The position numbers and the translations under genes are program-made. The notes beneath the pieces were generated by a model. It did not search any database and was not told where the DNA came from. It saw only the letters and a list, made by a program, of their open reading frames with translations. Positions 867 to 61,360 of a DNA stretch of 64,000 bases are shown in pieces. The DNA comes from a virus (Duplodnaviria; Caudoviricetes), in the IMG/VR virus record IMGVR_UViG_2645727714_000001, positions 1-64,000 of that record. One strand, 5' to 3'. Within the stretch, counting starts at the first letter, position 1, and the number at the start of each line of letters is the position of its first letter.

Positions 867-1059
867 TAGCCACCCTGAACTGGCCCTACGCACGCCCGCA
901 GAGGTCTCTGGATATCTCGGCACACCGTGGGACGCGCCCTTGCTGATGTTGTCAGCAGAGAGGTGTCGGAAGAAGGTGGACCGACAGGCGAAAGGCCCCC
1001 GACCGCAGATCGGGGGCCCTGCTGGACCGCTCGCGCTGGTGGGGCAACGAGAGGTACCG

Positions 1060-46977: not shown

Positions 46978-48456
46978 CTACCGCTGGTTGACCAGGATGC
47001 GCGATACCCGGATCTGCTTGGCCGAGGCGGCCAGCGTGGTCACACTCGCCTGGTAGCCGAGCTGGGTGAACGCGCTCGGGATGGTGACGCTGTGGGTCGC
47101 GACAAGGACGTCCCCGACCCAGAAGCGCACGACGCTGGCGGCCCAGTTCAGCTCCGCGCGCAGCTCGTAGGTGGTCACCGCGGCGATCGCTGCGATGGTG
47201 ACCGTGACGGTGGCGTTGGTGCCGTCGCAGGTAACCGTGCGCCAGTAGGACGTGCCGTCGATCGCAGAGTCGTAACGGAAGTAGATCCCCGTGGCGGTCG
47301 ACGCGCCGCTCGCGGCCGGGCCCGCGCCGCTGGAGCGGTCCGCGGTGACCAGGCCGACGACATAGCGAGTGCTGGCTACGGAGGTGTTGTCTGTCTGGAT
47401 CTTGCCGTAGAAGTAGGGCAGCGAGCTGGTGCGCAGGTGGGTGTAGTTCGGGCTCGTGACCCCGCCGACGCTTCCCGCGGTCGCAGCCGTGGTGAACAGG
47501 GCGAAGTTGCTTTCGATGGTGTCGGCGCCGCCCGCGGTCGCGGCGGTCAGCGTCGGCGCCGGGCAGCCGATTGTCTGGAAGGTGGACGCGCCGCCGGAGG
47601 CATGGATGCCCCAGGTGATCCGCCTCGATGGCGCCCCGAGCTCCTCCTGGTGCCCCGAGGAGGTACGCAGCATGAGCCGCCCGGCCCGTGACCACAGCAC
47701 CACGCCCGCACGGGTCGCGAATGCGTTCTCGGCCGTATGGGAGCCATCCGGGTTCGAGCTCGGCGGGGTGTCGGCGTCCCCCAGGGCCAGCACGTCGATC
47801 CCGCCGCCCGGGTCGCCCTGGGCCATCCGCACGCCGCCGTAGGAGTTCGCCGCGAACCGGCGGTCGAACACTCCGACGGCCGTGAACAGAAGGTCGTTCG
47901 GGTCAGCGGAGTACAGACCCGCGCCGCCGAATGGCGCGACGCCGAAGATGACCGCGCCCCGGAAGTCGCGCACGAGTAGCAGCTGGCGACTGGAGCCTTC
48001 TCGGCCTCGGATGACCACGCCATCCCTGGAGCCGTCCGGGAGTAGAAAATTCCAGACGCCCTCGTTCGAGCTCCCCGTGCCTCCCAGGACCCGCTGGACC
48101 GTGCCGCCGGAGACGTAGGTGCCCGACCCTGTGGCGGCCGAGAGGGTGAAGGCGGTGTTGCTAGTGATCGCGGCGATGGTGCGGACGCCGTTGACACCGG
48201 AGATGCCGGTGGCGCCCGAGATGGTCACCACGTCACCCGCGCCGTAGCCGTGGCTGGCGGACGTGGTGATCGTGACGGTGGAGGTTCCGGCGACTCCGGA
48301 GATTGCCAGAGGCGCCTCGCCGGAGATGATCGTTCCGTCCGCGAGCACCCCGGCGCGGGCTGCGATGTCCCCGGGCAGGCGCGTGTCCCATACGCGGGCG
48401 GTGATCGCGGAGGCCACCCGGCCGGCGAACGCGGTTACCGCGCGGGTCAGCGGCAT
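46978..48456 (-). CDS. Fibre/appendage-like virion protein with FCCH-like beta domain and lectin-like C-terminus
   Basis: TITTSASHGY.AGD.VTISGATG...VNG..TI..IT.NT.F.L; Thr/Ser/Gly-rich; beta-sandwich-like C-terminus. Confidence 0.65.
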   Translation of the reverse strand: MPLTRAVTAFAGRVASAITARVWDTRLPGDIAARAGVLADGTIISGEAPLAISGVAGTSTVTITTSASHGYGAGDVVTISGATGISGVNGVRTIAAITSNTAFTLSAATGSGTYVSGGTVQRVLGGTGSSNEGVWNFLLPDGSRDGVVIRGREGSSRQLLLVRDFRGAVIFGVAPFGGAGLYSADPNDLLFTAVGVFDRRFAANSYGGVRMAQGDPGGGIDVLALGDADTPPSSNPDGSHTAENAFATRAGVVLWSRAGRLMLRTSSGHQEELGAPSRRITWGIHASGGASTFQTIGCPAPTLTAATAGGADTIESNFALFTTAATAGSVGGVTSPNYTHLRTSSLPYFYGKIQTDNTSVASTRYVVGLVTADRSSGAGPAASGASTATGIYFRYDSAIDGTSYWRTVTCDGTNATVTVTIAAIAAVTTYELRAELNWAASVVRFWVGDVLVATHSVTIPSAFTQLGYQASVTTLAASAKQIRVSRILVNQR

Positions 48457-48457
48457 C

Positions 48458-48898
48458 TCAGGTCCACTCGGCGACTCGCGCCGCCCCGTCGGCCGCGGAC
48501 CAGATCCCCGAGACGATCCCGGTGTACCGGGCGGGCAGCTCGTAGTAGTCCCCGGGGCCGAGCGCGACCGTGTAGGACGTGGCCGTCACGGTGCCGGCGC
48601 CCACCCGCAGGTAGAGCGTGGCGGTGGACTCGTTGGTGATCGCGGCCCCGATGCGGGCGGTGTTGGCCGCCAGGACGGTGACCGCACTGGCGGAGGCGGC
48701 GACGTTGGTGTGCGTGCCGGTGCTGGCGGCCCGCTCGCGCACCGCGAGGTTGCCCGCGGCGTCCACCCCGGCTACGCGCCCCGGGGTGATCCCGTCTCCG
48801 AGGGTGACGGTCTGCTGGAGCTCGCCGCCGACATCCTGGGCGTCGAGGGTCTTGGTGGTGTCGGCGGCGTCCTTCGCGCTGATGTTGGAGTCGGCCAT
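48458..48898 (-). CDS. Hypothetical structural protein
   Basis: VLAAN.AR.GA.I.N.S...LYL, YTG.VSGIW. Confidence 0.65.
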   Translation of the reverse strand: MADSNISAKDAADTTKTLDAQDVGGELQQTVTLGDGITPGRVAGVDAAGNLAVRERAASTGTHTNVAASASAVTVLAANTARIGAAITNESTATLYLRVGAGTVTATSYTVALGPGDYYELPARYTGIVSGIWSAADGAARVAEWT

Positions 48899-48908
48899 GC
48901 CGCCCCCG

Positions 48909-49559
48909 CTACGTGAAGCTGAGAGTCGCGGTGGCGGTCCAGGTCTGCCCGGCGGCCTTGGTGCCCTGGGCGATCGACGTGGCGTGGTTGAGCAGCGGCG
49001 CGGTCACCGTCGCGCCGGACGCGGTGCCGGCATCCAGGCCCATCTCGTTCCACGCGAAGTTGCCGTCGGAGCCGCCGAACACGGCCACGTAGGTCAACGT
49101 CTTGGGCACGGTGCCGCCCACCGTCGGTCCGCCTGTGCTTGCGGTGACGAGCTGGAACCAGCGGTTGGCCGCGCCCGAGGCCGCCGCGAGGTCGGTGTCC
49201 GCGGCCACCGCCGGCACCGAGCCCCCGCCCGCCGTCACGGTGCCGTTGCCCACCCCGATGCGCGTGTGAGTGTTGTCGTAGGCCTGCCCGCCCAGGCCGC
49301 CAGCCAGGTTGAGCAGCCTGGTCCACCCGGCGGTGCACAACACGTTGCCCAGGTGCTCGGTCACCGCGTACGGCGCCACCCGCAGGCGCGCGAAGTCCCG
49401 GTCCGTCGGCGCCCGGTCCAGCCGGAGCGTCGCCCACCGGGTGGCGTCCGCGCCCCAGCGCTCGACCCGCCACAGCGTGGTGGCCCGCCCATCACCGGGG
49501 AGGGGGATGCCGGCACCGGCCGCCAGCGCGCCGCCGGCGTGACCGTGATCGAGGGTCAC
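48909..49559 (-). CDS. Hypothetical structural protein (fibre-base-like)
   Basis: IGVGNG..A..DTDL, F...DGNFAWNE.G, GTK.AGQTW. Confidence 0.65.
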   Translation of the reverse strand: MTLDHGHAGGALAAGAGIPLPGDGRATTLWRVERWGADATRWATLRLDRAPTDRDFARLRVAPYAVTEHLGNVLCTAGWTRLLNLAGGLGGQAYDNTHTRIGVGNGTVTAGGGSVPAVAADTDLAAASGAANRWFQLVTASTGGPTVGGTVPKTLTYVAVFGGSDGNFAWNEMGLDAGTASGATVTAPLLNHATSIAQGTKAAGQTWTATATLSFT

Positions 49560-49900
49560 GACTGCTCCACTTCGGCCTGGGCGGCCTCGCGCGGGTCCGC
49601 GAGCTCCACCGGCACCGCGTAGGTGAGCACGGTGTGCCGGCCGTCCCGGTGCGGTTCCTCGCTGACCAGGCGGGCCTCCCCGGCCGGGCGCAGCCCGGCG
49701 AAAACGGCCTCATGCGTGGTGCCGGCCTGGTTGGGGCCGTGGTCGAAGCCCTCGCCGTAGGAGCGGGCGTCCACCACGAACTGCCGGCGGAACTCCCGAG
49801 CCTGCCCGGCCCGTTCGGGCTCGTCCCGTCCCCGGCGGGCGATCACCTGCTCGGCGCTCTCGCCGCGAGGGGTCTCGGCGCTGGCCTGCCGGGTGGCCAT
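49556..49900 (-). CDS. Hypothetical protein after the capsid gene
   Basis: TGATG coupling with capsid. Confidence 0.65.
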   Translation of the reverse strand: MATRQASAETPRGESAEQVIARRGRDEPERAGQAREFRRQFVVDARSYGEGFDHGPNQAGTTHEAVFAGLRPAGEARLVSEEPHRDGRHTVLTYAVPVELADPREAAQAEVEQS

Positions 49901-50814
49901 CAGCGGGTGTCTTCCATGATCGCGAAAGCGCCCGGGTGGCCGATCGTGAACCCGCGCCGTGAGCGCATCTTCAGGATCGACTCGTCGGACAGGAAGCCGA
50001 TGCCGGTGTCGCCGGACACCATCCGGGACTCCGGCCCCGAGCGCATGCCCAGCTTGAGCATGGTCCGGTTGCCCACGATCATCAGCGGGTTGCCGCCAGG
50101 CCGGGCGGTGTTGATCGCCGAGGTCCGCGCGCCCATGCTCCAACGCACCGGCAGCTCGAACAGCGTGTCCGGGGTGCCCTCGCGGCCACTGATGAAGATC
50201 GGACGGCCGGAGTCGTCCTTGATGCCGCGGAAGTTCTTCCGAAAGGTCGGGTGCGCGAGCACGAGGACCTCGTCCTCGGCCCAGTAGTCCGAGTTCTCCA
50301 CCAGGTTGACCGTTTCGGACAGCGCGTCGTACGAGGGACCGCCGCTCCCGGTCGCGGTGTAGTTGCTGTTGGCCACGTAGCCGACGTCCGGGTCATCGGT
50401 GCGGATCGCCCGGTAGACGCTGGTGAACAGGACCGTGGTCCCGTTCTCCGCGCCGGTGCAGCCCAGGGTGGAGTTATCCAGGTACTTGGCGTACGAGGTC
50501 GCCCAGTCCCGCTGCTTGACCTGGATGATCGCCACGGGGGAGTCCGCGAGGTCCTCATCCGCGATGCGGATGGCCTTGCCCATCTTGCGGGCGGTCAGCA
50601 GCACCTCGTCGTTGAGCGAGACGTCCTCGCCGTAGGTCTGCCCCTTGCCGACGCCCTCGACCTCCACGCCGCCGGAGCGGGGGATGGTGCGGGTGTCGGT
50701 GCCCATCGGGACGCGCAGCGCCACGTCCTCGACCACGGACATCTGGCGGATGCGCTGGATGACATCGGAGTCCTGCTCCTCCGGAATCCAGTCGTCGAAG
50801 ATCGTGCGAGCCAC
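49900..50814 (-). CDS. Major capsid protein (HK97 fold)
   Basis: WIPEE, L.ARKMG..I.I.DEDL.DS, IKDDSGRPIF, LF.LPV, R.RRGF; GAAAGG RBS. Confidence 0.9.
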   Translation of the reverse strand: MARTIFDDWIPEEQDSDVIQRIRQMSVVEDVALRVPMGTDTRTIPRSGGVEVEGVGKGQTYGEDVSLNDEVLLTARKMGKAIRIADEDLADSPVAIIQVKQRDWATSYAKYLDNSTLGCTGAENGTTVLFTSVYRAIRTDDPDVGYVANSNYTATGSGGPSYDALSETVNLVENSDYWAEDEVLVLAHPTFRKNFRGIKDDSGRPIFISGREGTPDTLFELPVRWSMGARTSAINTARPGGNPLMIVGNRTMLKLGMRSGPESRMVSGDTGIGFLSDESILKMRSRRGFTIGHPGAFAIMEDTR

Positions 50815-51070
50815 GGCGGGCGCCTTTCGGTGCGGATGGGTGAGTGATTCGCCCATCCGGGCGTCCTGCCGTGCGCTCCACCTGGAGCCGTGGTGCCGGT
50901 GCCTCCGCTCGCCGCGCTCATCCGGGCGCCAGCGAGACGTGCCGTCGATCCGTCACGGATCTGGCGGTGATGCTAACTCTCTGTTGCGGCCCTGTCGAGG
51001 TAGTGGAAGGTGTGCGGGGCGGGTGTGACCCAATGGTGACGACGTGCACCAAGTGTGGCAATCTGGGTGC

Positions 51071-52210
51071 ATGGCGGATGTCGATCGGGGGACTCGGTTC
51101 CAGGGCGCGAACCGGTTCACCGGCGAGGAGGTGGCGGAGCTTGCCACCGCCTACCCGAATCTCGCTGACACTCGTCGCTTGCTCGATAGGGCTGGATTTC
51201 ATTTCCCCGATCTCCCGCAAGTTTGGCAGATTTGGTTTGAAGTGATTGCCGGTGTCGAAGATGGCACATTGAGAGACGGGAGGGAAAAGATTCTTGGAGT
51301 GGCACATCAAGAATTTCCCGAAAATCCCGTCTTTCGGCGCGGAACCCTTTTGAGTAAACTTGGTACTCAAGGCGTAAACCTGGTTGATTCAAATGTTTTC
51401 ATGGAGGTGGCGACCTCTCCTTTCGCGGAGCTGGCGAATCTTTGGAGTGCCTCCCATTTTGCGTGGCAAAATAGACCGCAGGAAACGGAAGCCCCGCTCC
51501 ATCGGAGGCGTATCGAGGCGTTCGTGCTCAGGAATCCGGGTCTTGGCTCTGGGCCGGTTTCGGTCGTTATTTGGGGCGGAGATACGGGTGCACGGGAGAG
51601 TCCGCCGAGCGATCCGCCGCCCCCGCGAGGAAACGTGGGGGGGCGGCGCGCTAGGCGCGCTTCGTTTGAATTTGAAAGTGATTACCGCCATCGGCTACCG
51701 CTGGAATTGCAACTCCTGCGGGCTCAGGTCGCAAGGGAACGTGCGCTTCTCGGTAAGCTTTCTGAGGAACGCCAGAGGCTCGCAGCGCAGCTGGCCGGAG
51801 AGGGTGAGCTGCTCGCTGAGATATCCAGAGAGCGGCAGCGCATCCAGCTCCTATCTGCCGACGAGGCGGGGCGGTATTCACCTACCTCGAGTGTCGACGA
51901 AATTGGGTCGACTGATAATCCGTCGAATGCGGACGGTCAACGGGATTCGCTCGGGCCCGCATCGCCGCAAGGAGGCTTTTTCAAAAAGATCCTCGGTTCG
52001 GCGCTCCGTGCTTTGCGTTTCTCTCTCCCAGTCAGGCCACAGCCTCCTACGCTGCCGCGCGAGCCTGATCAAGGCGAGGTTTCGGCTAACCTCCATGCAA
52101 TTCTAACTAAGATCGAAAACGAACTTGACGGTCAGTTCCAACGCTTCGGTGAGCTCGTGGCCGAGGAGTCTTCCTACACTACTACGAGTCATGAGGATCC
52201 AAGACGGTGA
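51071..52210 (+). CDS. EAD1-like (effector-associated domain) protein with coiled coil; lower-GC moron
   Basis: EVAELATAYP....RRLLDRAGF...LP....W.E....EDG...GR..IL..A...FPENPVF; many A/T-ending codons; antisense to the late operon. Confidence 0.7.
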   Translation: MADVDRGTRFQGANRFTGEEVAELATAYPNLADTRRLLDRAGFHFPDLPQVWQIWFEVIAGVEDGTLRDGREKILGVAHQEFPENPVFRRGTLLSKLGTQGVNLVDSNVFMEVATSPFAELANLWSASHFAWQNRPQETEAPLHRRRIEAFVLRNPGLGSGPVSVVIWGGDTGARESPPSDPPPPRGNVGGRRARRASFEFESDYRHRLPLELQLLRAQVARERALLGKLSEERQRLAAQLAGEGELLAEISRERQRIQLLSADEAGRYSPTSSVDEIGSTDNPSNADGQRDSLGPASPQGGFFKKILGSALRALRFSLPVRPQPPTLPREPDQGEVSANLHAILTKIENELDGQFQRFGELVAEESSYTTTSHEDPRR

Positions 52211-52695
52211 CCGCCTCCCATGAGACATCGACCGCCACCGTCCCGGGTCTGGATTCGCTCGATGTCGGAAGACTCTATGACGCCAGCCTTATTGAGAGGC
52301 TCAGTCGCAAGGACCCTGAGGTTCGCGCGTTCGTCATGGAGCGCATGAAGGCCGAGCACGACAGCCTCATCGAACAGCGCCGCGAGCGGACCCGCCGGGC
52401 AGGCAGTGAGGCGAGTCACCGGTACCGGCAAGCCTGGGCGGAGATAGGTGTTCGTGTAGCCGGGATCGGCTTAGGCTTCGCTGCCGTCATAAATCTCTCG
52501 GCGCTCGCCAAGCACTACAGCGACATCGGCCAAGCCGGCTACGGCGTCCTCATCGTCACGAGCGGCGCCGTGGCGATCGCCGGCATCTTCGTCCTCGGCA
52601 AGTTCGTCGGCCGCATGCCGCGAGTTCCGATCAACACACAGAGTCCGCCGCCGGTCGACCCCAGCGCCAACGGAGGCGGCCCGGCCGCACCCTGA
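52207..52695 (+). CDS. 2-TM membrane protein, DUF2335-like
   Basis: Helical N-terminus (DP....FVMERMKAEH) then two TM helices; GTGA-coupled to the EAD1 gene. Confidence 0.6.
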   Translation: MTASHETSTATVPGLDSLDVGRLYDASLIERLSRKDPEVRAFVMERMKAEHDSLIEQRRERTRRAGSEASHRYRQAWAEIGVRVAGIGLGFAAVINLSALAKHYSDIGQAGYGVLIVTSGAVAIAGIFVLGKFVGRMPRVPINTQSPPPVDPSANGGGPAAP

Positions 52696-52713
52696 GCGAC
52701 CGGGCCGCCGCCC

Positions 52714-53421
52714 TCAGCCCAGCAGCGCGGCCAGTCGCTCGGCCGAGGTCTTGGCCTTGGCCGGCTCGGGCTTGCGGTCTGCGGCGTCGGCCTTCGGTCG
52801 CTTCGCCGGCTCCGGCTTGGGCCTGGGGAAGAACTCCGGGTAGTCGGCCTTGATCGCCTCCACCTGGTCAGCCAGGCCGGTCACCTCCCCGTCCACGTCC
52901 ACCTCGATGCTGTCCTGGTCCAGCAGGCGGTACAGCCGCGCGAACTTGCCCTCCGACGGCTTGCCGTTCTCGTCGATCAGCGCGGCATTCGCGTCGTGGA
53001 ACGCGGCCTTGGCCGCGGAGCGGACGATGATCGGCTTGTAGCGCCCCTCGGTCTCCTTCGCGGACTCCTCCTGGGCCTCCCTCAGGGCCTTGTCGTGGTC
53101 ACTCTCGCCCTTGCGCTTGTCCGCGGCCACCTGCTCCTTGAGCTTGCGCAGATCGGTGCGGTAGCGGCGTGCCTCCTCCCGAGTGCGGGCCAGGGAGTCC
53201 CGCAGGGTGCGCAGTTCGGACGCGCTCGGCCGGTCCTCGTCGCCGTTGTCGTCCGCGTCCTTGCTGGCGTTCTCGTCGGCGTCCGCGTCGCGGTCGTCGT
53301 CCCCGCCGCCGGACTTCGGGTCGGTCCTGCTCTCCTCCTTGCTGCCGACCTTGCCCTCCTCAGCGCCGGCGTCGTCGGTGTCGTCGTCCTCCGGCTCGGG
53401 CCGGGCGTCCTCGTCTGCCAT
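52714..53421 (-). CDS. Capsid scaffolding protein
   Basis: Acidic N-terminus, REEARRYR coiled coil, GL..QVEAIK..YPE.F. Confidence 0.85.
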   Translation of the reverse strand: MADEDARPEPEDDDTDDAGAEEGKVGSKEESRTDPKSGGGDDDRDADADENASKDADDNGDEDRPSASELRTLRDSLARTREEARRYRTDLRKLKEQVAADKRKGESDHDKALREAQEESAKETEGRYKPIIVRSAAKAAFHDANAALIDENGKPSEGKFARLYRLLDQDSIEVDVDGEVTGLADQVEAIKADYPEFFPRPKPEPAKRPKADAADRKPEPAKAKTSAERLAALLG

Positions 53422-53463
53422 CGCGTGCTCCTCTCATGTCGGTCGCGCCCAACGGGCGGGTGG

Positions 53464-54468
53464 TCAGCGGGTTGCTACGGGGACCTGCCGGCCCGGGAAG
53501 TGGCCCTCGCGTACGGCGCGGGCAGCCACCTGACGCACCGAGGCCGGGGCGCCGGCGGGGGAGATCGTGGCCAGCAGCCTGTCGGCCGCGCGCACCCGTG
53601 CGGCGCCTGACTCGCTCGGCAGGGACCAGCCGCGCAACACCGAGCGCACCGCCTCCCGGCGTAGTGCCGCCGCCCAGTCCGCGTCCCGGTCCGGCGCGTA
53701 CGGGATGGTGTGGCACCGGCACCGGGGATGGCGAGGTGCTCCCTTGAGGGCGCCCGCCACCTTCGGTGCGGTGTCGCCGTAGGTGGCGGTCTTGCTCCAG
53801 GTGCCGTCCGCGTCGCACACCACTCCGGCCAGGCGCGTGCAGGCCAGGCAGGCGTCCCGCTCGGCCACCCACACCCGGCGCATCCCGGCGGCCTGGCTGA
53901 CCTCGGCCACGGCATCGTCCACCGCGGAGACCACCACCACGGCGGTGTGCGTCTCCAGCCGGGTGACCGCGCGGCGGGCCTGCCCGAGTGCCATTTCCAG
54001 CGCGGAGTACCCGGAGGCCCGCACCAGCTCGGGCCGCAGCAGGGCCAGCGCGGCCACCTGCTGCTCGCCCACCATCGCGGCCACGGGAGCCAGCGCGGCC
54101 CGCGCGCCGGGGGTAGCACCCCCAGGCGCCGGCACGGGGGGATCAGCGCCTGGAGGTAGCTGCTCACGAGCCTGCCGCACCCCGAGCGCGCGAGCACGCA
54201 CCAACGCGGCCGACAGTGCCCGTGTCGCGATATCGGCGGCACCGGCGAACGCTCCGGCCAGCGCGGTACGCAGCGAGGACAGCAGCCCGACCACCCCGGG
54301 GCCGGCCGGGGCCTCCAGCGCGCCGAACGCGCGCAGCCACCCGCGGGCCGCCACCGTGGCCCACCCAGCCAATCCCGCGGCCAGCTCACCGGCGACGGCC
54401 TCGGTGGTGGCGTCCACCAGCTTGCCCATCTCATGCGCCGCGGCGTCCAGCGCCTCCTGGTCAGGCAC
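53464..54468 (-). CDS. Minor capsid / head morphogenesis (MuF-like) protein
   Basis: WVAERDAC..C..LAG, PRHPRCRC; follows the portal gene. Confidence 0.8.
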   Translation of the reverse strand: MPDQEALDAAAHEMGKLVDATTEAVAGELAAGLAGWATVAARGWLRAFGALEAPAGPGVVGLLSSLRTALAGAFAGAADIATRALSAALVRARALGVRQAREQLPPGADPPVPAPGGATPGARAALAPVAAMVGEQQVAALALLRPELVRASGYSALEMALGQARRAVTRLETHTAVVVVSAVDDAVAEVSQAAGMRRVWVAERDACLACTRLAGVVCDADGTWSKTATYGDTAPKVAGALKGAPRHPRCRCHTIPYAPDRDADWAAALRREAVRSVLRGWSLPSESGAARVRAADRLLATISPAGAPASVRQVAARAVREGHFPGRQVPVATR

Positions 54469-55909
54469 TGGCGTCCTCGTCCGGGGCGTCGATCAGGGCG
54501 CTTACCGCGCGCTCCACCTGCTCCGCGCTGATCACGTTGAGGGCCACCCCGGCCCCGAGGGACTGCACGGCCTGCCCGAGCTTGACCAGCAGGTCGACCT
54601 TCGGCTTGATCTCGTCGCCGCGGTGGTAGCCCCAGGCCTCCACCTGCTCCGCGGAGTAGCCGGACTCCAGCAGGGCCTGCCGGGTGGGAACCCCGGCGTC
54701 GATCTTGGCCTGGATGGCGTTCCAGCCCTCCAGGTCGTCAATGCTGCGCACCGGCGCCCACGCCGGCCGGATCTCCACCTCCTCGCCCAGGCCCGCCGCG
54801 CGGGCCGCGCAGCGCCAGGCGGCTTCGTGGGTGTCGCCGAAGCCGGCGAGGCGGTCCTCGACCTTCTTGTCCAGCGGCGCCTCGGCCGCGCGCAGGCTCT
54901 CCCCGCTGGGCGCGTCCCCGGAGATCTCGAAGAAGTGCGCCGGGGTGGCGGTGGTGGCCCCCATCCACTGCACCATCGCCGTGGCCGGGTCGAGGAACGC
55001 CGCGACATTGGCGGCCTGGAACTCGCCCACCTTGTCCACGTTGCGCAGCCACCACAGCTCCCCAGGCCCAGCACGCAGGGTGGACCGCTCTGCCGTGGGG
55101 GCCTGGGTCTCGTCCTCCTCGTCGAAGCCGCCCGGGTCGTCCGCGTCGCCGCCGGCTACGGCGTAGCGCTGCGGGAAGCCCTGGAAGTCGATCGAGGACA
55201 TCAGGGTGGCCACCAGCTTGGTGATCGCGTTCTGCGGCCCGTAGGCGTTGGCGTGCTCGGGCACCCCGTAGGGCCGGGCGGTGCGCAGGTGAAACACCGG
55301 CACCTCGCCGAGCTCGTGCTCGACCTCGTGGTCGTCATCCTCCCCGTAGGGCTCCCAGTCGCTGTCCACCTCGCCGCGCTGCCTGGGCTGCTCCACCAGC
55401 ACCCACCGCTCCACCCGGTCCGGGTAGTAGAGCGTGGAGCGCAGCCGGCCCGAGGCGGGCAGCCACAGCTTCGCGCCGTAGCGGACCTTCCGCGGGTCCT
55501 CGTCGTCATAGAACGCCCGGGTGGTCAACGGGGAGTTGTGGAACACGTCCACGTCCCCGTCCCTTTCCCCGGGCCACACCAGCAGGTAGGCGTCCCCGTA
55601 CACCTCTGCGTCCCGGTGCGCGTCGGCCACCTCCGCCCGCATCCGGTTGCGGCGCCACTGCGCGGCCAGCCAGTCGGCCGCCGCCTTGTCCGGGGAGGTC
55701 AGGCCCAGCAGGCGCAGCCGCTCCAGCACGGCGTCCACCGGCCGGCAGGCAAGGTTGATCTTGTAGTGGGCGCCGGTGGCCTGGAGCTTCTTGCGGATGG
55801 CCGGTGAGGCGAACACCTCGTCCACCTGCCCCCGGTAGTAGGCCATCGCCTCTTCGTAGCCGGGCCGGGCCTCCCGGATCGCGCACACCGCCGCGGTCAG
55901 GTCCGACAC
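54461..55909 (-). CDS. Portal protein (SPP1 gp6-like)
   Basis: YYRG, N....PVDAV.ERL, YGDAYL.VW, PQNAI.K, FPQRY, PSGESLR. Confidence 0.92.
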   Translation of the reverse strand: MSDLTAAVCAIREARPGYEEAMAYYRGQVDEVFASPAIRKKLQATGAHYKINLACRPVDAVLERLRLLGLTSPDKAAADWLAAQWRRNRMRAEVADAHRDAEVYGDAYLLVWPGERDGDVDVFHNSPLTTRAFYDDEDPRKVRYGAKLWLPASGRLRSTLYYPDRVERWVLVEQPRQRGEVDSDWEPYGEDDDHEVEHELGEVPVFHLRTARPYGVPEHANAYGPQNAITKLVATLMSSIDFQGFPQRYAVAGGDADDPGGFDEEDETQAPTAERSTLRAGPGELWWLRNVDKVGEFQAANVAAFLDPATAMVQWMGATTATPAHFFEISGDAPSGESLRAAEAPLDKKVEDRLAGFGDTHEAAWRCAARAAGLGEEVEIRPAWAPVRSIDDLEGWNAIQAKIDAGVPTRQALLESGYSAEQVEAWGYHRGDEIKPKVDLLVKLGQAVQSLGAGVALNVISAEQVERAVSALIDAPDEDASA

Positions 55910-55916
55910 GTCGCCC

Positions 55917-56180
55917 TCACGAGTCCCACCCGGCTCCGGGCGCCAGCCGGTCCGCGCTGGAGCGGGCGGCGTACTCCGTCCGGGCGCCGCGGCGTGCCCA
56001 GTCCGGCACCGGAACCCCCGGCGCGGCCTCGGTGTGCCGAGTCGAGCCAAGGTCGGCCCCGCACACGCAGTTGCCGGCGCCGCTGGTGACGTCCCGGGCA
56101 TAGACGTGCGGGCGCCCGTACGCGCCGGGCCCCGGGCCGACCGTGCCCTCGAAGCCGGGCACCTCCCGCTCCGATGTCAC
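55917..56180 (-). CDS. Hypothetical protein
   Basis: In operon; HVY..GNCVCG..H. Confidence 0.5.
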   Translation of the reverse strand: MTSEREVPGFEGTVGPGPGAYGRPHVYARDVTSGAGNCVCGADLGSTRHTEAAPGVPVPDWARRGARTEYAARSSADRLAPGAGWDS

Positions 56181-56893: not shown

Positions 56894-58450
56894 TCAGGCG
56901 TAGGTGCTGGCCGAGCCGGACGGCCCGCTCGGCTTCTTTCGATCAAGGAAGAACCAGACTCCGGTCCCGGTGGCATCGACCACGTCGTCCGTCAGGCCGC
57001 GCGGGTAGGCGAGCATCTCCGTCTCCGCCGCGGGCAGCCGCCGGGCGTGCACCACCTCGGGCAGGCCGTCCGCGCACCGGCGCTGGTAGTGGTTCAGCGT
57101 CCGGGCCGCGCGGAAGTCCTTCGGCTCGGACTGGTGCACAGTGATCACCCGCACCGGCAGGTCGTGCAGGATTTCCAGCCAGGCCTCGCCGCCCTGGTTG
57201 GTCTCGATCAGCACCGCGCCCACCTCCGGGTGCCGCGCGAGCACGCCCAGCACAGTGGTGCGCAGGTCCGCGGGGGGCAGGCGCAGCGAGGCGGCGTAGC
57301 GCACCACGCACCGGCGGATCTTCGGCGCCGGCCGGGCCAGCCCCACCACCGCCAGGCCGTAGGGGTGGGAGGCGGTCTTGGAGGTGGTGGCCGGGTCGAT
57401 CGAGAGCAGCGCCCGCACCAGCGGCGGGTCCGCGTAGACGATGTCCCCCGGCCCCCAGTAGTCCCCGTCCAGCGAGACGGGCTGGTTGGCGAAGTTCTTG
57501 GCGTACGAGCGCGTGTGCTCGATGGACTCCAGGTAGGCCAGCGTCCACTTGCCCGGCCAGCACGAGCGGCGCGTGCCGTCTCCCCGGTCCACGATCGGCG
57601 CGAAGTGGTGCACCGCGAACCGCTCGGCCGCGAGCCGTTCGTCCAGCTCCGCCTCGGGCTCGGTGATGGTCCGCACGAGCTGGTGGATGATCGATCCGGC
57701 CATCACCACCGTGCCCACCACGACCACCCGCGCGAAGGCGTTGAGCGGCAGGATCGCGTCCACGATCGCGACCAGGCGCTTGCTGGCCTGGTACGCGCTG
57801 TACGTGCCCTCGTGGGGCTCGACGTCGTCCAGCACGAGCAGGTCTGGCCGCAGCGCGCCCACCTTCATGCCGAGCACGCCCGCGTCGATGCCTCGCGCGG
57901 CGAACACGAAGCCGCCGCGCTGCTGGATCATGTGCTGGGTGTCGGCCACGGTGGTGCCTCGGGGCCGCGTGGCCGGGGCGCACAGGTCCGGGTAGTCCTG
58001 CCGCAGCAGCGTGTTGGTCTCCAGCTCCCGGCGGAAGGTGTCCAGGTGCTGCTCGGCCTGCACCCCGGCATCGGCGAACGCGGCGATGAACCGCACCCAC
58101 CCGTGCGCGGCGGCCCACAGCGGCAGGATCAGGAACAGGAGAGTGGTCTTGCCCGCGTTGCGCGGGGCCACCCAGACGTCCCGGTGCTCCGCTGGGCTGG
58201 ACGGCGGCAGTGCCCACGTGCGCGCGTGCCGGAACAGCGCGAGGTGGAAGTCGGCGAACGTGATCTCCCCGTTGGTCTCGTCCCCGCGCAGGTGGTGCGG
58301 GCAGTACAGCAGCGCGAAGAGAAGGGGCGAGAGGCGTGTGAGCGTGCGTCGCCCCTCCGGGCTGGCCAGCAGCCGCTCGTCGAACGTGGCGAGCCACCCC
58401 TCCAGGTCGAACGTCTCCGCGTCCGCGTCCGGGCTGTACGGGTCTGCCAC
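56894..58450 (-). CDS. Terminase large subunit
   Basis: APRNAGKTT Walker A, RPDLLVLDD Walker B, SIDPA, IETNQGG, DDVVDA; start approximate. Confidence 0.93.
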   Translation of the reverse strand: MADPYSPDADAETFDLEGWLATFDERLLASPEGRRTLTRLSPLLFALLYCPHHLRGDETNGEITFADFHLALFRHARTWALPPSSPAEHRDVWVAPRNAGKTTLLFLILPLWAAAHGWVRFIAAFADAGVQAEQHLDTFRRELETNTLLRQDYPDLCAPATRPRGTTVADTQHMIQQRGGFVFAARGIDAGVLGMKVGALRPDLLVLDDVEPHEGTYSAYQASKRLVAIVDAILPLNAFARVVVVGTVVMAGSIIHQLVRTITEPEAELDERLAAERFAVHHFAPIVDRGDGTRRSCWPGKWTLAYLESIEHTRSYAKNFANQPVSLDGDYWGPGDIVYADPPLVRALLSIDPATTSKTASHPYGLAVVGLARPAPKIRRCVVRYAASLRLPPADLRTTVLGVLARHPEVGAVLIETNQGGEAWLEILHDLPVRVITVHQSEPKDFRAARTLNHYQRRCADGLPEVVHARRLPAAETEMLAYPRGLTDDVVDATGTGVWFFLDRKKPSGPSGSASTYA

Positions 58451-58473
58451 CCGCGGGCGCTCCAGCAGGGCGG

Positions 58474-58632
58474 TCAGCGCGCCTTCCCCTTCCCCTTGCT
58501 CTTCTTGATCGCGACGAGCTGCTTCACCGCGGCGGCACGGGAGGAGTGGTCGGCCTTCTTGCCGGCAGTCTCGCCGGTGCCCTTCTTCACCACCCGGTGC
58601 TTGCCGCCGCGTTTGGAGATCCGGTACGGCAC
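58474..58632 (-). CDS. Small Lys-rich protein
   Basis: PYRISKRGG...HSSRAAAVKQL.AI. Confidence 0.55.
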   Translation of the reverse strand: MPYRISKRGGKHRVVKKGTGETAGKKADHSSRAAAVKQLVAIKKSKGKGKAR

Positions 58633-58634
58633 GG

Positions 58635-59213
58635 CTACCCCTTCCCGCGCTCGGCGCTCTGGTGGTCCTCGTCCCTCCACTGCCGTGGCGTGCTGTCCGC
58701 GTGGTGCTCGCACAGCAGCAGCGCCCCCCGGCGGGCGTCCGACTCGTAGGCGCCGCGGCGTACCCCCGCCACGAATGCCAGGGCCGCCGGCTGCTCGCAC
58801 CAGCCGAGACCACACCGGTACGACGCTGGCGCCGGGGAGGCCTGCCATCCCATGCGCCACGACCAACGCACCCACAGGCCGGTCCGGCTGGGCCCGCCGG
58901 AGTCAGGGTCTGGGACGAACCGGACCATGCCCTCGGCGAGAGACTGCTCACCCTGGAGGTCCGGCACCTCCGGGAGGAAGAGGTACTCGGTCGCGGCCCG
59001 GCCGCCGAGCTCGGGCGGATAGCAGCCCGGGTCGACCGGTGGCAGGTCCGGGCTCTCCACCAGCACCAGCAGCGCCATCCGCATGAAGTCGGCCGACACC
59101 CCGGCCACCCGCATGCCGGCGGGCAAGGTCAGAAGCTGGGCGATCGTGTCCTCGTCGAGAGTGATCACGGCCCGGCCCGGACGCTCCTCCAGCTCGGTGT
59201 CCCGCTCACCCAT
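58635..59213 (-). CDS. Hypothetical protein
   Basis: Between the terminase subunits; C-terminal C/H cluster. Confidence 0.55.
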   Translation of the reverse strand: MGERDTELEERPGRAVITLDEDTIAQLLTLPAGMRVAGVSADFMRMALLVLVESPDLPPVDPGCYPPELGGRAATEYLFLPEVPDLQGEQSLAEGMVRFVPDPDSGGPSRTGLWVRWSWRMGWQASPAPASYRCGLGWCEQPAALAFVAGVRRGAYESDARRGALLLCEHHADSTPRQWRDEDHQSAERGKG

Positions 59214-59670
59214 CGGCGCGCCCTTCCTGGGTGCCCTGGCGCAGCGCCTCCTCCTCGACCGCGGTCCGCGCCTTGGCCTCACGAATCAGCGCGGCCAGCT
59301 CGATGTCGGCCGGGTCCACGCGGGTGACCTGCACGTCCACCTGCCCGCGCTCGCCCCACCGCTGGGTGTGCCGGCGAGACAGCCAACCCATCGCCGCGCG
59401 CCAGTCCCCCTCGGCCGCCGCTCGTTGGACCACCGTCAGCGCGCGGATCACAGCCTTGGCCTCGGCCTGCTCGTATTCGGCGACGAAGCGGGCGTGCGCG
59501 GTGTCCTCCTGACCCTCCGCGAGGTCCCGGCGGCCGGCGCGCAGCCAGCCCAGCAGCGTGTTCTCCGCGACCCCGGCGAAGCGCGCGGCCTCCACCTGGT
59601 AGGCGCCGATGCCGATGGCGTCGCAGATCCGGGCCTGGACCTCCGGGGTGAGCCCACTGGGCCGGGCCAT
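59206..59670 (-). CDS. Terminase small subunit (HTH type)
   Basis: MARPSGLTPE...IC.AI..G.Y...AA..AGV...TL..W, DWRAA..WL.RR...WG. Confidence 0.78.
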   Translation of the reverse strand: MARPSGLTPEVQARICDAIGIGAYQVEAARFAGVAENTLLGWLRAGRRDLAEGQEDTAHARFVAEYEQAEAKAVIRALTVVQRAAAEGDWRAAMGWLSRRHTQRWGERGQVDVQVTRVDPADIELAALIREAKARTAVEEEALRQGTQEGRADG

Positions 59671-61359: not shown

Positions 61360-61360
61360 G

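What the first reader, a model, noticed from the sequence alone, without database searches (positions are those of the whole stretch)
51071..52695. Antisense lower-GC EAD1 + 2-TM cassette inserted between scaffold and capsid: candidate defence or exclusion system
Seen: two coupled plus-strand genes interrupt the minus-strand head operon, and gene 1 has strongly atypical codon usage. Gene 1 is an EAD1-like N-domain plus a coiled coil with no recognisable enzyme domain; gene 2 is a DUF2335-like membrane protein. Known: EAD1 is an adaptor domain of biological-conflict systems enriched in multicellular bacteria, and prophage morons often encode defence. Inference: a sensor/adaptor plus membrane effector, or an EAD1 decoy that titrates host EAD1 systems.
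Basis: partly seen in the sequence, partly recalled or inferred. Interest (0 to 1): 0.7.

Follow-up and report, generated by a model that had tools for sequence, protein, structure and literature searches.

The report
Prophage EAD1 adaptor plus membrane-protein cassette
A temperate phage of a high-GC actinobacterium carries, wedged backwards between its scaffold and capsid genes, a foreign two-gene insert encoding an enzyme-less immune "docking" protein (EAD1 domain plus coiled coil) and a small two-helix membrane protein, which probably ties a membrane-acting module to the host's death-domain-like immune wiring, but its function is untested.

Summary
Two plus-strand genes (51071-52210 and 52207-52695) sit between the minus-strand scaffold and capsid genes. 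They form the only extended low-GC island in the 90-kb provirus record (GC minimum 0.54 against 0.715; gene 1 GC3 0.58 against 0.87-0.95).

Gene 1 has a true EAD1 domain (Pfam 47.8 bits, cut-off 24.2). It continues with a disordered Arg/Pro linker, one 57-residue helix, a cationic amphipathic helix and a C-terminal helix, and no enzyme domain was found. Gene 2 is a two-transmembrane hairpin protein. It resembles DUF2335 in layout and in ESM Atlas look-alikes, but it fails the Pfam model.

None of 17 related phages has the insert, and only one near-identical provirus does. Outside the EAD1 domain both proteins are near-orphans.

Function is inferred only. My best reading (about 0.4) is a lysogen-expressed, EAD1-wired membrane effector pair that works like RexAB. 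The main rival (about 0.3) is a membrane-tethered EAD1 decoy like the phage CARD-only protein. Expression, binding and the host's EAD1 repertoire could not be tested.

This scan has noted phage EAD1 proteins before on other DNA. This one is a new variant of a known kind, of moderate interest.

The parts
49900..50856 (-). Major capsid gene (left flank of the insert)
   Evidence: Pfam Phage_capsid E 2.1e-15; PHROG 10 major head protein E 7.6e-21
50857..51070 (.). 214-bp divergent intergenic region between the capsid start and the gene 1 start, with native-like GC (0.68). It holds a minus-strand sigma70-like site (50998 to 50970, TCGACA-17-TAGCAT) facing the capsid gene. No plus-strand promoter was predicted for gene 1.
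51071..52210 (+). Gene 1: 379-aa cytoplasmic, non-enzymatic EAD1 / coiled-coil protein (P0001). GC3 0.576, CAI 0.265. No Shine-Dalgarno sequence precedes the ATG.
   Evidence: no TM segment (maximum Kyte-Doolittle 0.98)
51113..51340 (+). EAD1 domain (residues 15-90), a helical bundle
   Evidence: PF19955 at 47.8 bits. All 12 columns that are invariant across 13 EAD1 proteins are kept. AF2 pLDDT is 85-97. The best structural neighbours are Death-fold domains: AIM2 PYD Z 6.5, CED-3 CARD Z 6.3, PIDD/RAIDD DD Z 6.3.
51464..51688 (+). Predicted disordered Arg/Pro-rich linker (about residues 132-206), including PPSDPPPPRGNVGGRRARRAS
   Evidence: AF2 pLDDT below 50; composition
51701..51871 (+). Single 57-residue helix (residues 211-267), probably a coiled coil
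   Evidence: AF2 pLDDT 85-93. VIA rows for residues 205-272 are all coiled coils. In the best heptad register 11 of 19 a/d positions are hydrophobic.
51977..52018 (+). Cationic amphipathic helix (residues 303-316, FFKKILGSALRALRF), a candidate membrane-surface anchor
   Evidence: AF2 helix; hydrophobic moment 1.37; the membrane-anchor role is inferred
52043..52207 (+). C-terminal helix module (residues 325-379). This is the only non-EAD1 part with any relative: a 59-aa metagenomic protein, P0009, 52% identical, aligned right up to the stop.
52207..52695 (+). Gene 2: 162-aa membrane protein (P0002). Its GTG start overlaps the gene 1 stop (GTGA), with GAGGA 9 nt upstream. GC3 0.785.
   Evidence: annotated as 162 aa in one public genome and 119 aa in the other
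52444..52611 (+). Two-TM helical hairpin (about residues 80-102 and 110-135), with Arg/Lys-rich flanks on the N and C sides (probably N-in/C-in)
   Evidence: Kyte-Doolittle peaks 1.74 and 2.26; AF2 helices 37-103 and 108-136
52672..52712 (.). GC-rich 17-bp-arm hairpin lying exactly between the convergent stops of gene 2 and the scaffold gene; a candidate bidirectional terminator without a U-tract
   Evidence: I8. Folding gives -35.1 kcal/mol (z -3.5) on + and -50.0 kcal/mol (z -4.2) on -, and 0 of 200 shuffles fold as well on either strand.
52714..53421 (-). Scaffold gene (right flank of the insert)
   Evidence: Pfam Phage_scaffold E 8.9e-14; PHROG 194

Best explanation
The feature is a horizontally acquired, self-contained two-gene moron of a temperate actinobacterial phage.

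Gene 1 makes a cytoplasmic adaptor with no enzyme. It has an N-terminal EAD1 (Death-like) docking domain, a disordered Arg/Pro-rich linker, a long coiled-coil helix, a cationic amphipathic helix and a C-terminal helix. Gene 2 is translationally coupled to it and makes a small N-in/C-in two-TM hairpin protein with a DUF2335-like layout.

Most likely the pair is expressed from the prophage and works like RexA/RexB or the Sbash gp30/gp31 pair, with one addition: its cytoplasmic subunit is wired by EAD1 into the host's EAD1-coupled immune hubs. In this model:
- Homotypic EAD1 contact with a host EAD1-bearing NTPase, or with a host EAD1-protease that may cleave the exposed linker, is triggered by infection.
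- That contact oligomerises or releases the coiled-coil / C-terminal part.
- The released part drives the two-TM partner to depolarise or permeabilise the membrane, aborting infection or excluding rivals.

Shown: gene anatomy, EAD1 membership, foreign composition, insertion at a variable junction, absence from relatives, and the membrane hairpin.
Inferred: expression in the lysogen, contact between gene 1 and gene 2 products, contact with host EAD1 proteins, the membrane effect, and benefit to the lysogen.
For: - EAD1 scores above the Pfam cut-off and keeps all 12 invariant positions.
- Of 22 library hits scanned with Pfam, 21 carry EAD1. Four also carry TIR, 3 CHAT, 2 NB-ARC, and 1 each HTH, EAD2 and PKD; 9 have EAD1 alone. 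This is the immune-adaptor context described by Kaur et al. 2020 (PMC7159879, passages read). They propose that EAD1 recruits effectors to core systems by homotypic contact, and that further copies lie elsewhere in the genome.
- Moron hallmarks are present. It is the only low-GC island in 90 kb. It runs opposite to the late operon. A strong hairpin sits at the convergent 3' end. It is absent from 17 of 17 relatives with about 50% capsid identity, whose MuF-capsid gap is 626-1256 bp against 2607 bp here.
- The junction is variable: 4 of those 17 relatives carry a different 86-aa gene there.
- The phage looks temperate. IMG/VR classes the record as a provirus. The proteins lie on 565-kb and 1.42-Mb contigs. 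A Gp3-like RDF is present, and a sub-threshold tyrosine-integrase match lies at the record end.
- The layout of a soluble protein followed by an overlapping small membrane protein is the layout of known prophage exclusion pairs. The GTGA overlap with a good Shine-Dalgarno sequence supports co-translation.
- Gene 1 has far more than a bare docking domain: 290 further residues including a membrane-seeking amphipathic helix.
- Gene 2 has a sub-threshold Holin-X resemblance (E 0.025) and a holin-like two-TM topology.
- A second layout analogue emerged. In 18 of 30 Pseudomonadota DUF2335 loci, a small soluble protein of one family is encoded just upstream of the DUF2335 gene, mostly overlapping it.
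Against: - There is no evidence of expression. No plus-strand promoter was predicted, and gene 1's ATG has no Shine-Dalgarno sequence.
- AT-rich DNA in actinobacteria is a typical target of Lsr2 silencing (recalled, not tested).
- Neither protein matches any PADLOC model.
- The phage record holds only one EAD1, and the host genome could not be searched.
- The nearest EAD1 among 1.84 billion representatives is only 35-38% identical, so no cognate partner is in sight.
- GC3 differs between gene 1 (0.58) and gene 2 (0.79), so the two genes may not share an origin.
- The cassette is known from only two near-identical proviruses, with 2 real base differences in the cassette. Selection on it therefore cannot be measured.
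- Homology of gene 2 to DUF2335, and of gene 1's tail to the DUF2335 partner family, is not shown.
Confidence: 0.4

Rival explanations
1. Anti-defence decoy. The phage's EAD1 docks onto host EAD1-bearing immune hubs or effectors and blocks their homotypic assembly. The coiled coil adds avidity, and the amphipathic helix plus the two-TM partner sequester the captured host protein at the membrane. This protects the phage, at induction or on infection, from EAD1-wired suicide systems.
For: - There is an experimental precedent. The CARD-only protein of Acinetobacter phage 133 inhibits a CARD-dependent bacterial gasdermin system (Wein et al., PMC10312443, passages read).
- The gene 1 product has a docking domain and no enzyme.
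- Its N-terminal domain is closest in fold to PYD, CARD and DD.
- The same phage is rich in probable counter-defence functions: NADAR, an ArdC/IrrE-like protein, and FolE-QueD-QueC for 7-deazaguanine.
- Earlier agents of this scan read four other phage EAD1 proteins the same way. These are unchecked notes, not independent evidence.
Against: - A minimal decoy does not need 290 extra residues and a coupled membrane protein.
- The gene lies antisense inside the late head operon, not among early genes.
- Its codon usage (GC3 0.58) and its 35-38% best identity show it is not a recent copy of a high-GC host's own EAD1. Kaur et al. report that interacting EADs tend to be close, lineage-specific paralogues.
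- The host's EAD1 repertoire is unknown.
Confidence: 0.3
2. A self-contained membrane-toxin module unrelated to host EAD1 networks. This could be an addiction / toxin-antitoxin-like pair, or a lysis-timing accessory in which a holin-like two-TM protein is regulated by its soluble partner. EAD1 would serve only for self-association.
For: - The gene order, soluble regulator first and then an overlapping small membrane protein, is typical of coupled toxin-regulator pairs.
- There is a weak Holin-X resemblance (E 0.025) and a class-II-holin-like topology.
- Only one EAD1 occurs in the phage.
Against: - The Holin-X score of 15.1 bits is below the 28.4-bit cut-off.
- The phage's endolysin (Amidase_2 + PG_binding_1) lies about 12 kb away, at record 65073-65957, not beside the cassette.
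- The cassette is dispensable in all 17 relatives.
- EAD1 is otherwise known only in immune or conflict architectures.
Confidence: 0.12
3. A recently hitch-hiked, silent or decaying passenger with no current function in this phage.
For: - Composition is strongly unameliorated.
- No promoter was predicted.
- It is found in only two near-identical proviruses.
- Both proteins are near-orphans.
Against: - Both reading frames are intact in both proviruses. The only amino-acid differences are one substitution (P142L) and one N.
- The EAD1 keeps every invariant position.
- The overlap and the Shine-Dalgarno sequence are intact.
- A 52%-identical relative of the C-terminal module exists elsewhere, with conservation up to the stop codon. 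That module is therefore maintained in at least one other lineage.
Confidence: 0.12

Closest known systems
EAD1 (Pfam PF19955), effector-associated domain 1 of NTP-dependent conflict systems (Kaur, Burroughs, Iyer & Aravind 2020, PMC7159879; 2021, PMC8195603)
   Same: The N-terminal domain of gene 1 is a member by profile score and conserved residues. Like most EAD1s it sits at a protein terminus and is all-alpha.
   Different: It is phage-borne. It is fused to a coiled coil and helices of no known family, not to a TIR, caspase, trypsin or NTPase domain. No second EAD1 lies in the same locus or element. The passages I read in the two papers do not describe prophage-encoded EAD1 proteins.
Phage CARD-only protein (pCARD) of Acinetobacter phage 133 (Wein et al. 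2023, PMC10312443)
   Same: A phage-encoded Death-fold docking domain without an enzyme, which could interfere with homotypic immune assemblies.
   Different: pCARD is a 141-aa single-domain protein in a lytic phage, next to rIIAB. Here the domain is EAD1, and it heads a 379-aa multi-part protein that is coupled to a membrane protein and carried as an antisense moron in a prophage.
Lambda RexA/RexB and mycobacteriophage Sbash gp30/gp31 (prophage-expressed soluble sensor plus membrane protein abortive-infection pairs; recalled from the literature, RexAB also discussed in PMC10312443)
   Same: A two-gene prophage cargo with a cytoplasmic protein followed by a small polytopic membrane protein. 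The proposed logic, a cytoplasmic trigger leading to membrane depolarisation, is the same.
   Different: There is no sequence or profile similarity (PADLOC: none). The membrane subunit has two TM helices, not four. The cassette lies in the head operon, not the immunity region. The soluble subunit carries an EAD1 adaptor, which Rex-type systems lack.
DUF2335 (Pfam PF10097) membrane proteins and their upstream small partner
   Same: The size is the same (about 130-190 aa) and so is the layout: a soluble N-terminal helical part plus a C-terminal two-TM hairpin and a short charged tail. The gene arrangement is also the same: a soluble protein encoded just upstream, usually overlapping (18 of 30 loci). 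ESM Atlas look-alikes of gene 2 are DUF2335-named clusters (score 0.92, 197 shared features; TM 0.59-0.67).
   Different: Gene 2 lacks the DUF2335 signature: no Pfam hit at E<=10, and hhalign gives 53% probability over TM2 only. The tail of gene 1 aligns colinearly with the partner family but without statistical support (probability 0.1-15%). DUF2335 has no known function; two of the five papers that mention it were read at the mention and use the name for a phospholipase toxin domain.
EACC1-caspase 'System 4' of Kaur et al. 2020 (membrane-associated two-gene system, EACC1 sometimes fused to EAD1)
   Same: Actinobacterial, two genes, membrane-associated, and able to carry EAD1.
   Different: In System 4 the EAD1 protein itself carries the single conserved TM helix, and the 3' gene encodes a caspase-like peptidase. 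Here the EAD1 protein has no TM segment, and the 3' gene is a two-TM protein without a peptidase.
Bab/Agp amyloid-signalling pair of E. coli ECOR25 (bioRxiv 10.1101/2024.11.07.622273; passages read)
   Same: Prophage-hotspot cargo in which a small membrane-targeting effector is coupled to a cytoplasmic partner through a shared adaptor element.
   Different: The adaptor there is an amyloid motif shared by both proteins, and the partner is a TPR-GreA/B-PIN sensor. Here the adaptor is EAD1 on one protein only.

Membership tests
EAD1 (PF19955) | Profile match above Pfam's gathering score | tested here: met
   47.8 bits against 24.2, E 2.1e-12, residues 15-90 covering profile positions 2-84 of 90; six-frame search 50.9 bits, with 0 of 14 control genomes ringing
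EAD1 (PF19955) | Conserved positions of the family | tested here: met
   E20, A25, L38, A41, P49, W55, G65, G70, R71, A78, P83 and N85 are invariant in a 13-sequence alignment with 12 EAD1 hits
EAD1 (PF19955) | Small all-alpha, non-enzymatic domain with a Death-like fold, located at a protein terminus | tested here: met
   AF2 gives five helices in residues 18-98 with pLDDT 85-97, and the position is N-terminal. The Death-fold neighbours (7k3r_A Z 6.5, rmsd 3.4, 90 aligned; 8jol_C Z 6.3; 2of5_H Z 6.3) top the list for this domain, but they lie in a Z range that can arise by chance for helical bundles.
EAD1 (PF19955) | A cognate second EAD1 on a core component in the same operon or genome (the coupling principle of Kaur et al. 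2020) | tested here: not met
   Only one EAD1 occurs in the 90,033-bp provirus record, and there is none in the neighbouring genes. The host chromosome is not held, so the genome-wide part of this feature is not testable here.
DUF2335 (PF10097) | Match to the family profile (50-position N-terminal motif GPlPpP..l..Ye.i.PG.aeRIl.maEkEq.HR) | tested here: not met
   No hit at E<=10 by hmmscan of the protein, nor in a six-frame search of the record
DUF2335 (PF10097) | Layout: soluble N-terminal helices plus a C-terminal two-TM hairpin, about 130-190 aa | tested here: met
   P0002 has helices 26-35 and 37-103 and TM segments at about 80-102 and 110-135. Most of the 30 DUF2335 proteins extracted here show two C-terminal hydrophobic segments.
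DUF2335 (PF10097) | Remote homology by profile comparison or look-alike search | tested here: inconclusive
   hhalign of a 25-sequence DUF2335 alignment against P0002 gives probability 53%, E 1.3e-4, over 39 columns covering TM2 and the tail only. Atlas features score 0.92 with 197 of 256 shared, to clusters named or partly annotated DUF2335.
Holin-X (PF07332, Phage_holin_3_6) | Profile match above the cut-off; gene beside the endolysin | tested here: not met
   15.1 bits against 28.4. The endolysin lies at record 65073-65957, about 12 kb away.
Moron (extra, independently transcribed gene set in a prophage late region; definition recalled from Juhala et al. 2000) | Present between genes that are adjacent in related phages; deviant base composition | tested here: met
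   0 of 17 relatives have it. GC minimum is 0.54 against 0.715, and it is the only such island in the record.
Moron | Own promoter and terminator | tested here: inconclusive
   A terminator-like hairpin lies at 52672-52712. No sigma70-like plus-strand promoter was found upstream, but actinobacterial promoters are poorly covered by that scan.
Known anti-phage defence systems (PADLOC-DB v2) | Match of either protein to any of 5027 models | tested here: not met
   0 families at E<=1 for both proteins
Phage Death-fold-only decoy (pCARD type) | Protein consisting of the docking domain alone | tested here: not met
   The EAD1 domain is 76 of 379 residues. The rest is linker, coiled coil and helices, with a coupled membrane partner.
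EACC1 two-gene system (Kaur et al. 2020, System 4) | EAD1 protein with the conserved single TM helix (EACC1); 3' gene with a caspase-like peptidase | tested here: not met
   No TM segment in P0001 (maximum hydropathy 0.98). No EACC1 or peptidase Pfam hit in either protein.

The most novel reading that the evidence does not exclude
The cassette is an EAD1-wired version of a widespread but uncharacterised two-gene membrane module: a small soluble helix protein followed by an overlapping DUF2335-like two-TM protein. A prophage has fused a Death-like EAD1 adaptor and a coiled coil onto the soluble subunit. The host's EAD1-coupled immune hubs, or their EAD1-proteases cutting the exposed Arg-rich linker, can then fire a phage-supplied membrane effector. 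That would be the first case of a virus adding its own effector arm to a bacterial Death-fold signalling network. It would also give the soluble + DUF2335 pairs a function as membrane executioners.
Probability: 0.2. Interest if true: 0.75.

Novelty: new variant of a known kind. Interest (0 to 1): 0.5.

Why it matters
EAD domains are predicted, not yet experimentally characterised, connectors of bacterial cell-suicide and immune systems that resemble animal Death, CARD and PYD wiring.

A prophage that carries an EAD1 protein coupled to a membrane protein offers a compact, genetically tractable two-gene handle for three questions:
- whether EAD1 really mediates homotypic recruitment;
- whether viruses plug into that network to arm the lysogen or to disarm it;
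- what the many 'small soluble + DUF2335-like membrane' gene pairs in prophages do.

If it proves to be only a passenger gene, it is still a clean example of a foreign insert splitting a head-assembly operon.

Tried and rejected
Homologue searches
- The word-indexed search found only the proteins themselves, for P0001 and for P0002.
- The exhaustive HMMER search with P0001 gave 23 hits including itself. All but one matched through EAD1; the exception was the 59-aa P0009.
- P0009 searched for longer relatives: none.
- tblastn of P0001 and P0002 against 50,697 phage records and 72,556 plasmids: no match.
- IMG/VR held only the near-identical provirus.
- The genome-contig scan returned one spurious 34% hit in a Candidimonas MAG.
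- The metagenome scan with the P0001+P0009 alignment confirmed nothing among 596 pattern matches.

Family and structure searches
- NCBIfam, PHROGs (also at E<=10) and PDB sequence searches gave nothing meaningful.
- Foldseek of the P0001 model against PDB and of the P0002 model against BFVD gave nothing at E<=0.001.
- VIA wide for P0002 gave only generic helical hairpins (best 7uh4_A, Z 8.2).
- The Atlas search with residues 195-379 of P0001 gave no usable hit.

Tests that could not be run
- Expression: no RNA holder and no run at all was listed for the stretch. This is no evidence either way.
- Host relatives cannot be drawn for a virus record, so the host's EAD1 repertoire was not examined.

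Ideas considered and dropped
- Homology of the gene 1 tail to the DUF2335-partner family. The alignments are colinear, but probabilities are 0.1%, 0.3% and 15%, so I treat it as a lead only.
- Flanking direct repeats as insertion scars. Only 10-14-nt two-copy matches exist, which is consistent with chance.
- dN/dS on the cassette. There are only two real base differences between the two proviruses.
- DUF2335 literature. Two of the five papers that mention it were read at the mention and use the name for a phospholipase toxin domain, which does not fit the membrane-protein family seen here. I drew nothing from it.
Full report
**1. What is in the sequence**

The window is bases 1-64000 of a 90,033-bp record that IMG/VR classes as a provirus. 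Around the finding, the minus strand carries a normal head module (Pfam and PHROGs):
- TerL, 56894-58951
- portal, 54461-56101
- MuF-like minor head protein, 53464-54468
- scaffold, 52714-53421
- major capsid, 49900-50856

Between scaffold and capsid lie two plus-strand ORFs. Gene 1 is 51071-52210 (379 aa, P0001) and gene 2 is 52207-52695 (162 aa, P0002).

The composition claim is correct and strong.
- GC3 is 0.576 for gene 1 and 0.785 for gene 2, against 0.87-0.945 for seven neighbouring phage genes.
- A codon adaptation index built on ten phage genes gives 0.265 for gene 1 and 0.47 for gene 2, against 0.64-0.81 for the phage genes.
- Inside gene 1, codons 40-110, the core of the EAD1 domain, fall to GC3 0.33-0.47.
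- Over the whole 90-kb record (GC 0.715, sd 0.033 in 400-bp windows), 50901-52501 is the only extended island below 0.62, with a minimum of 0.54.

**2. Gene 1**

Pfam finds EAD1 (PF19955) at residues 15-90, with E 2.1e-12 and 47.8 bits against a cut-off of 24.2. A six-frame search finds this one copy and no other in the record, and the model rings in none of 14 control genomes. Aligned with 12 EAD1 proteins from the exhaustive search, P0001 keeps all 12 invariant columns.

No other Pfam, PADLOC, PHROG or NCBIfam family matches.

An AlphaFold2 model was built with a shallow 8-sequence alignment that covers only the EAD1 part (mean pLDDT 67). It shows:
- a confident helical bundle at residues 11-100 (pLDDT 85-97);
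- a low-confidence, Arg/Pro-rich stretch at 132-206;
- one uninterrupted helix at 211-267 (pLDDT 85-93);
- a short helix at 303-316;
- a final helix at 334-371.

There is no transmembrane segment (maximum hydropathy 0.98). The helix at 303-316 (FFKKILGSALRALRF) is cationic and amphipathic. I read it as a possible membrane-surface anchor, which is an inference.

Foldseek against PDB found nothing. VIA-align against 48,161 chains put three Death-fold domains on top for the N-terminal domain:
- AIM2 PYD 7k3r_A: Z 6.5, rmsd 3.4, 90 aligned
- CED-3 CARD 8jol_C: Z 6.3
- PIDD/RAIDD DD 2of5_H: Z 6.3

All rows for residues 205-272 were coiled coils. These Z values are in the range the tool warns can be chance for helical proteins. 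They agree with, but do not prove, the published assignment of EADs to the Death-like world (Kaur et al. 2020 and 2021; passages read).

**3. Gene 2**

Two hydrophobic segments (about residues 80-102 and 110-135; Kyte-Doolittle peaks 1.74 and 2.26) form a helical hairpin in the single-sequence AF2 model. A long cytoplasmic helix runs into TM1 (helices 37-103 and 108-136). Basic residues flank both ends, so N-in/C-in is likely, which is inferred.

The start is ambiguous in public annotation: 162 aa in one genome and 119 aa in the other.
- The GTG at 52207 overlaps gene 1's TGA and has GAGGA 9 nt upstream.
- The ATG at 52336 has GAGG 14 nt away.

I take the 162-aa form, and therefore translational coupling, as the better call.

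- The Pfam model PF10097 does not match, even at E<=10.
- The ESM Atlas nearest clusters are named or partly annotated DUF2335 (score 0.92, 197 of 256 shared features; structural TM 0.59-0.67).
- A weak Holin-X resemblance (E 0.025, 15.1 bits against a cut-off of 28.4) is below threshold.
- The phage's endolysin lies 12 kb away, so gene 2 is not the lysis holin by position.

**4. It is an insertion at a variable junction**

Eighteen IMG/VR loci encode a related capsid.

One of them (L002/L020) is a near-identical second provirus that carries the cassette, at 99.5% amino-acid identity.
- Its DNA differs from the window at only 8 positions across 48.5-54.5 kb, and 3 of those are Ns.
- The flanks differ far more: 212 differences in 45.07-48.5 kb and 79 in 54.5-55.84 kb, about 6% each.
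- The head module plus cassette is therefore a recently shared block in a mosaic.
- Within the cassette the real differences are one synonymous change (51136) and one P142L change (51495). The codon assignments are my own arithmetic.

The other 17 loci have about 46-56% capsid identity, and most are fragments.
- They have 626-1256 bp between MuF and capsid, room for a scaffold gene only, against 2607 bp here.
- None has EAD1 over the cut-off anywhere in its record. This covers all 17 records, of which 2 are rated 100% complete.
- Four of the 17 (L007, L009, L015, L017) carry a different, conserved 86-aa same-strand gene between scaffold and capsid. The junction accepts cargo.

At the 3' end, a 17-bp-arm GC-rich hairpin (52672-52712) lies exactly between the convergent stops of gene 2 and the scaffold gene.
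- Folding energies are -35.1 kcal/mol on the plus strand and -50.0 kcal/mol on the minus strand.
- None of 200 shuffles folds as well on either strand.
- If it terminates late transcription as well, the capsid gene would need its own promoter. The one sigma70-like site found in 50500-53000 is on the minus strand at 50998-50970, upstream of the capsid gene. This is an inference.
- No plus-strand promoter was predicted for gene 1, and its ATG has no Shine-Dalgarno sequence.

**5. Relatives of the proteins**

Outside EAD1 the pair is nearly orphan. The word-indexed search of 5.8 billion clusters returned only the proteins themselves. They occur in two public genomes, on contigs of 565 kb and 1.42 Mb.

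The exhaustive HMMER search of 1.84 billion representatives gave 23 hits at E<=0.001, including P0001 itself.
- 21 match through EAD1, at 31-46% identity; the three best are at 35-38%.
- By Pfam, these 21 carry TIR (4), CHAT (3), NB-ARC (2), HTH (1), EAD2 (1), PKD (1) or EAD1 alone (9).
- One hit, P0009, is a 59-aa metagenomic protein that aligns to residues 325-379 at 52% identity, right up to the stop.
- The conserved terminal E-D-P codons contain the GAGGA that serves gene 2's start. That is consistent with a coupled downstream gene in that relative too, but I could not fetch its contig.

There were no matches in cultured phages or in plasmids.

**6. Context in the phage**

The record encodes the following:
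- helicase and two DUF3987 primase-like proteins
- NADAR and NUDIX
- an ArdC/IrrE-like protein
- FolE-QueD-QueC and a methyltransferase
- tape measure
- endolysin
- WhiB
- a Gp3-like recombination directionality factor

A sub-threshold tyrosine-integrase match lies at the right end of the record, and no serine recombinase was found.

PADLOC found no defence system among 67 other ORFs beyond generic helicase, QueC and methyltransferase hits.

The portal's nearest cultured relatives are Streptomyces phages, at 32-40% identity. Together with 71.5% GC and WhiB, this makes the host probably a Streptomyces-like actinomycete, which is inferred. Kaur et al. report many EAD1 paralogues in such multicellular actinobacteria, for example 22 in a Frankia. 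This host's own repertoire could not be examined.

**7. A side test: DUF2335 and its partner**

Earlier notes of this scan (e1-153409, e1-178007) said that DUF2335 genes travel with an overlapping small soluble gene in prophages. I checked this independently.

- PF10097 matched in 34 of 401 sampled Pseudomonadota genomes.
- In the 30 loci fetched, the proteins show a soluble N-terminal motif plus a C-terminal two-TM hairpin.
- I picked an upstream same-strand ORF in 28 of the 30 loci, leaving out L031 and L055.
- 18 of these upstream ORFs form one BLASTP-linked family, with motif L.G.GSV..v.P ... aL..DW..VG.dL..a..kF. In 14 of the 18 the stop overlaps the longest-ORF start of the DUF2335 gene.
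- The family has no Pfam model (0 of 18).

The gene 1 tail plus gene 2 has the same layout. Homology, however, is not shown.

| Comparison (hhalign) | Probability | E-value | Extent |
|---|---|---|---|
| DUF2335 alignment vs P0002 | 53% | 1.3e-4 | 39 columns, TM2 and tail only |
| Partner family vs P0009 | 15% | 0.0018 | 47 columns spanning all of P0009 |
| Partner family vs P0001 | 0.1% | 0.52 | 30 columns, residues 302-331 |
| Partner family vs P0001+P0009 | 0.3% | 0.21 | 58 columns, residues 302-360, colinear |

I keep this as a lead only. All DUF2335 sequences used were proteobacterial, and actinobacterial ones might do better.

**8. Mechanism**

The default reading of an EAD1 protein without a core NTPase, in the framework of Kaur et al., is a component recruited by homotypic EAD1 contact to a core system encoded elsewhere. 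The phage has no second EAD1, so the partner would be host-encoded or the protein itself.

Two directions are then possible.

(a) *Effector module for the lysogen.* The moron features, the coupled membrane protein, the membrane-seeking helix and the 290 non-EAD1 residues fit a Rex-like module best: a cytoplasmic subunit that receives a signal, and a small membrane subunit that collapses the membrane. The exposed Arg-rich linker suggests, speculatively, activation by an EAD1-guided host protease. That would parallel CARD-protease activation of bacterial gasdermin (Wein et al.).

(b) *Decoy.* The phage CARD-only protein shows experimentally that a phage Death-fold domain can inhibit such wiring. 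This phage carries several likely counter-defence genes. Against the decoy: the gene's position and orientation, its extra parts, and its low similarity and foreign codon usage, which argue that it is not a copy of the present host's EAD1.

I put (a) at about 0.4 and (b) at about 0.3. A self-contained toxin or lysis-type pair and a silent passenger get about 0.12 each.

**9. Novelty and verdict**

The following are all known:
- EAD1;
- Death-fold decoys in phages;
- two-gene soluble-plus-membrane prophage exclusion systems;
- morons.

This scan has already flagged several phage EAD1-only proteins on other DNA.

Two literature searches of the held library found no paper describing a prophage-encoded EAD1 protein.
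- 'EAD1' + 'prophage' returned 3 papers. I read passages of two; the third I saw only in the listing.
- The 'Death-like / anti-defense / phage / CARD-only' search listed only Wein et al..

What is new is the combination: an EAD1 adaptor on a coiled-coil protein, coupled to a two-TM protein, inserted antisense into a head operon. I rate it a new variant of a known kind and of moderate interest. Its value would rise sharply if the host proves to have EAD1 systems and the pair shows a phenotype.

Noticed in passing
window 59670-62338 (-) and 63050-63784 (-): The phage carries FolE (GTP cyclohydrolase I), QueD (PTPS) and QueC next to a methyltransferase-like gene. This is a 7-deazaguanine DNA-modification set, a likely anti-restriction trait.
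   Followed up: no
window 940-1599 (+), 13883-14548 (-), 16568-17590 (-): NADAR, NUDIX and an ArdC-N / IrrE (Peptidase_M78)-like protein are encoded in the early/replication region. They are candidate counter-defence genes.
   Followed up: no
window 46978-48456 (-): A 492-aa structural (tail-region) protein matches the ubiquitin-activating-enzyme E1 FCCH domain (PF16190, E 3.2e-8, above the cut-off). This is an unexpected domain in a phage virion-region gene.
   Followed up: no
window 48500-54500 versus L020: Between the two proviruses, the block from the head-tail connector side through capsid, cassette, scaffold and MuF differs at only 8 positions in 6 kb. The tail-fibre side (45.07-48.5 kb) and the portal (54.5-55.84 kb) differ by about 6%. 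This is a sharp recombination mosaic.
   Followed up: partly
L007:5268-5528, L009:1589-1849, L015:4269-4529, L017:5447-5707: A conserved 86-aa same-strand gene of unknown function (33-87% pairwise identity) sits between scaffold and capsid in 4 of 17 related phages. The same junction holds different cargo in different relatives.
   Followed up: partly
L026-L055 (Pseudomonadota genomes): In 18 of 30 DUF2335 loci, a small upstream ORF of one unnamed family (motif L.G.GSV..v.P ... aL..DW..VG.dL) precedes the DUF2335 gene, and in 14 of those 18 it overlaps it. None of the 18 matches a Pfam family. This is a recurrent uncharacterised two-gene module.
   Followed up: partly
proteins P0011, P0013, P0017 (EAD1-only hits): Three short EAD1-only proteins share a Gly/Asn/Val-rich N-terminal stretch (for example GNVNGSGIVFGN.GQVNQTI) ahead of the EAD1 domain. 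It is reminiscent of bacterial amyloid-signalling motifs, a resemblance I recall and did not test.
   Followed up: no
window 3676-6054 (+) and 6312-7511 (+): Two paralogous DUF3987 (primase/helicase-associated) genes lie in tandem, the first fused to a DnaB-N-like domain.
   Followed up: no
record 89590-89931 (outside the window; L056): A sub-threshold tyrosine-integrase match (19.1 bits, E 5e-5) lies in the last ORF, which runs off the end of the record. No serine recombinase was found, although a Gp3-like RDF is present.
   Followed up: partly
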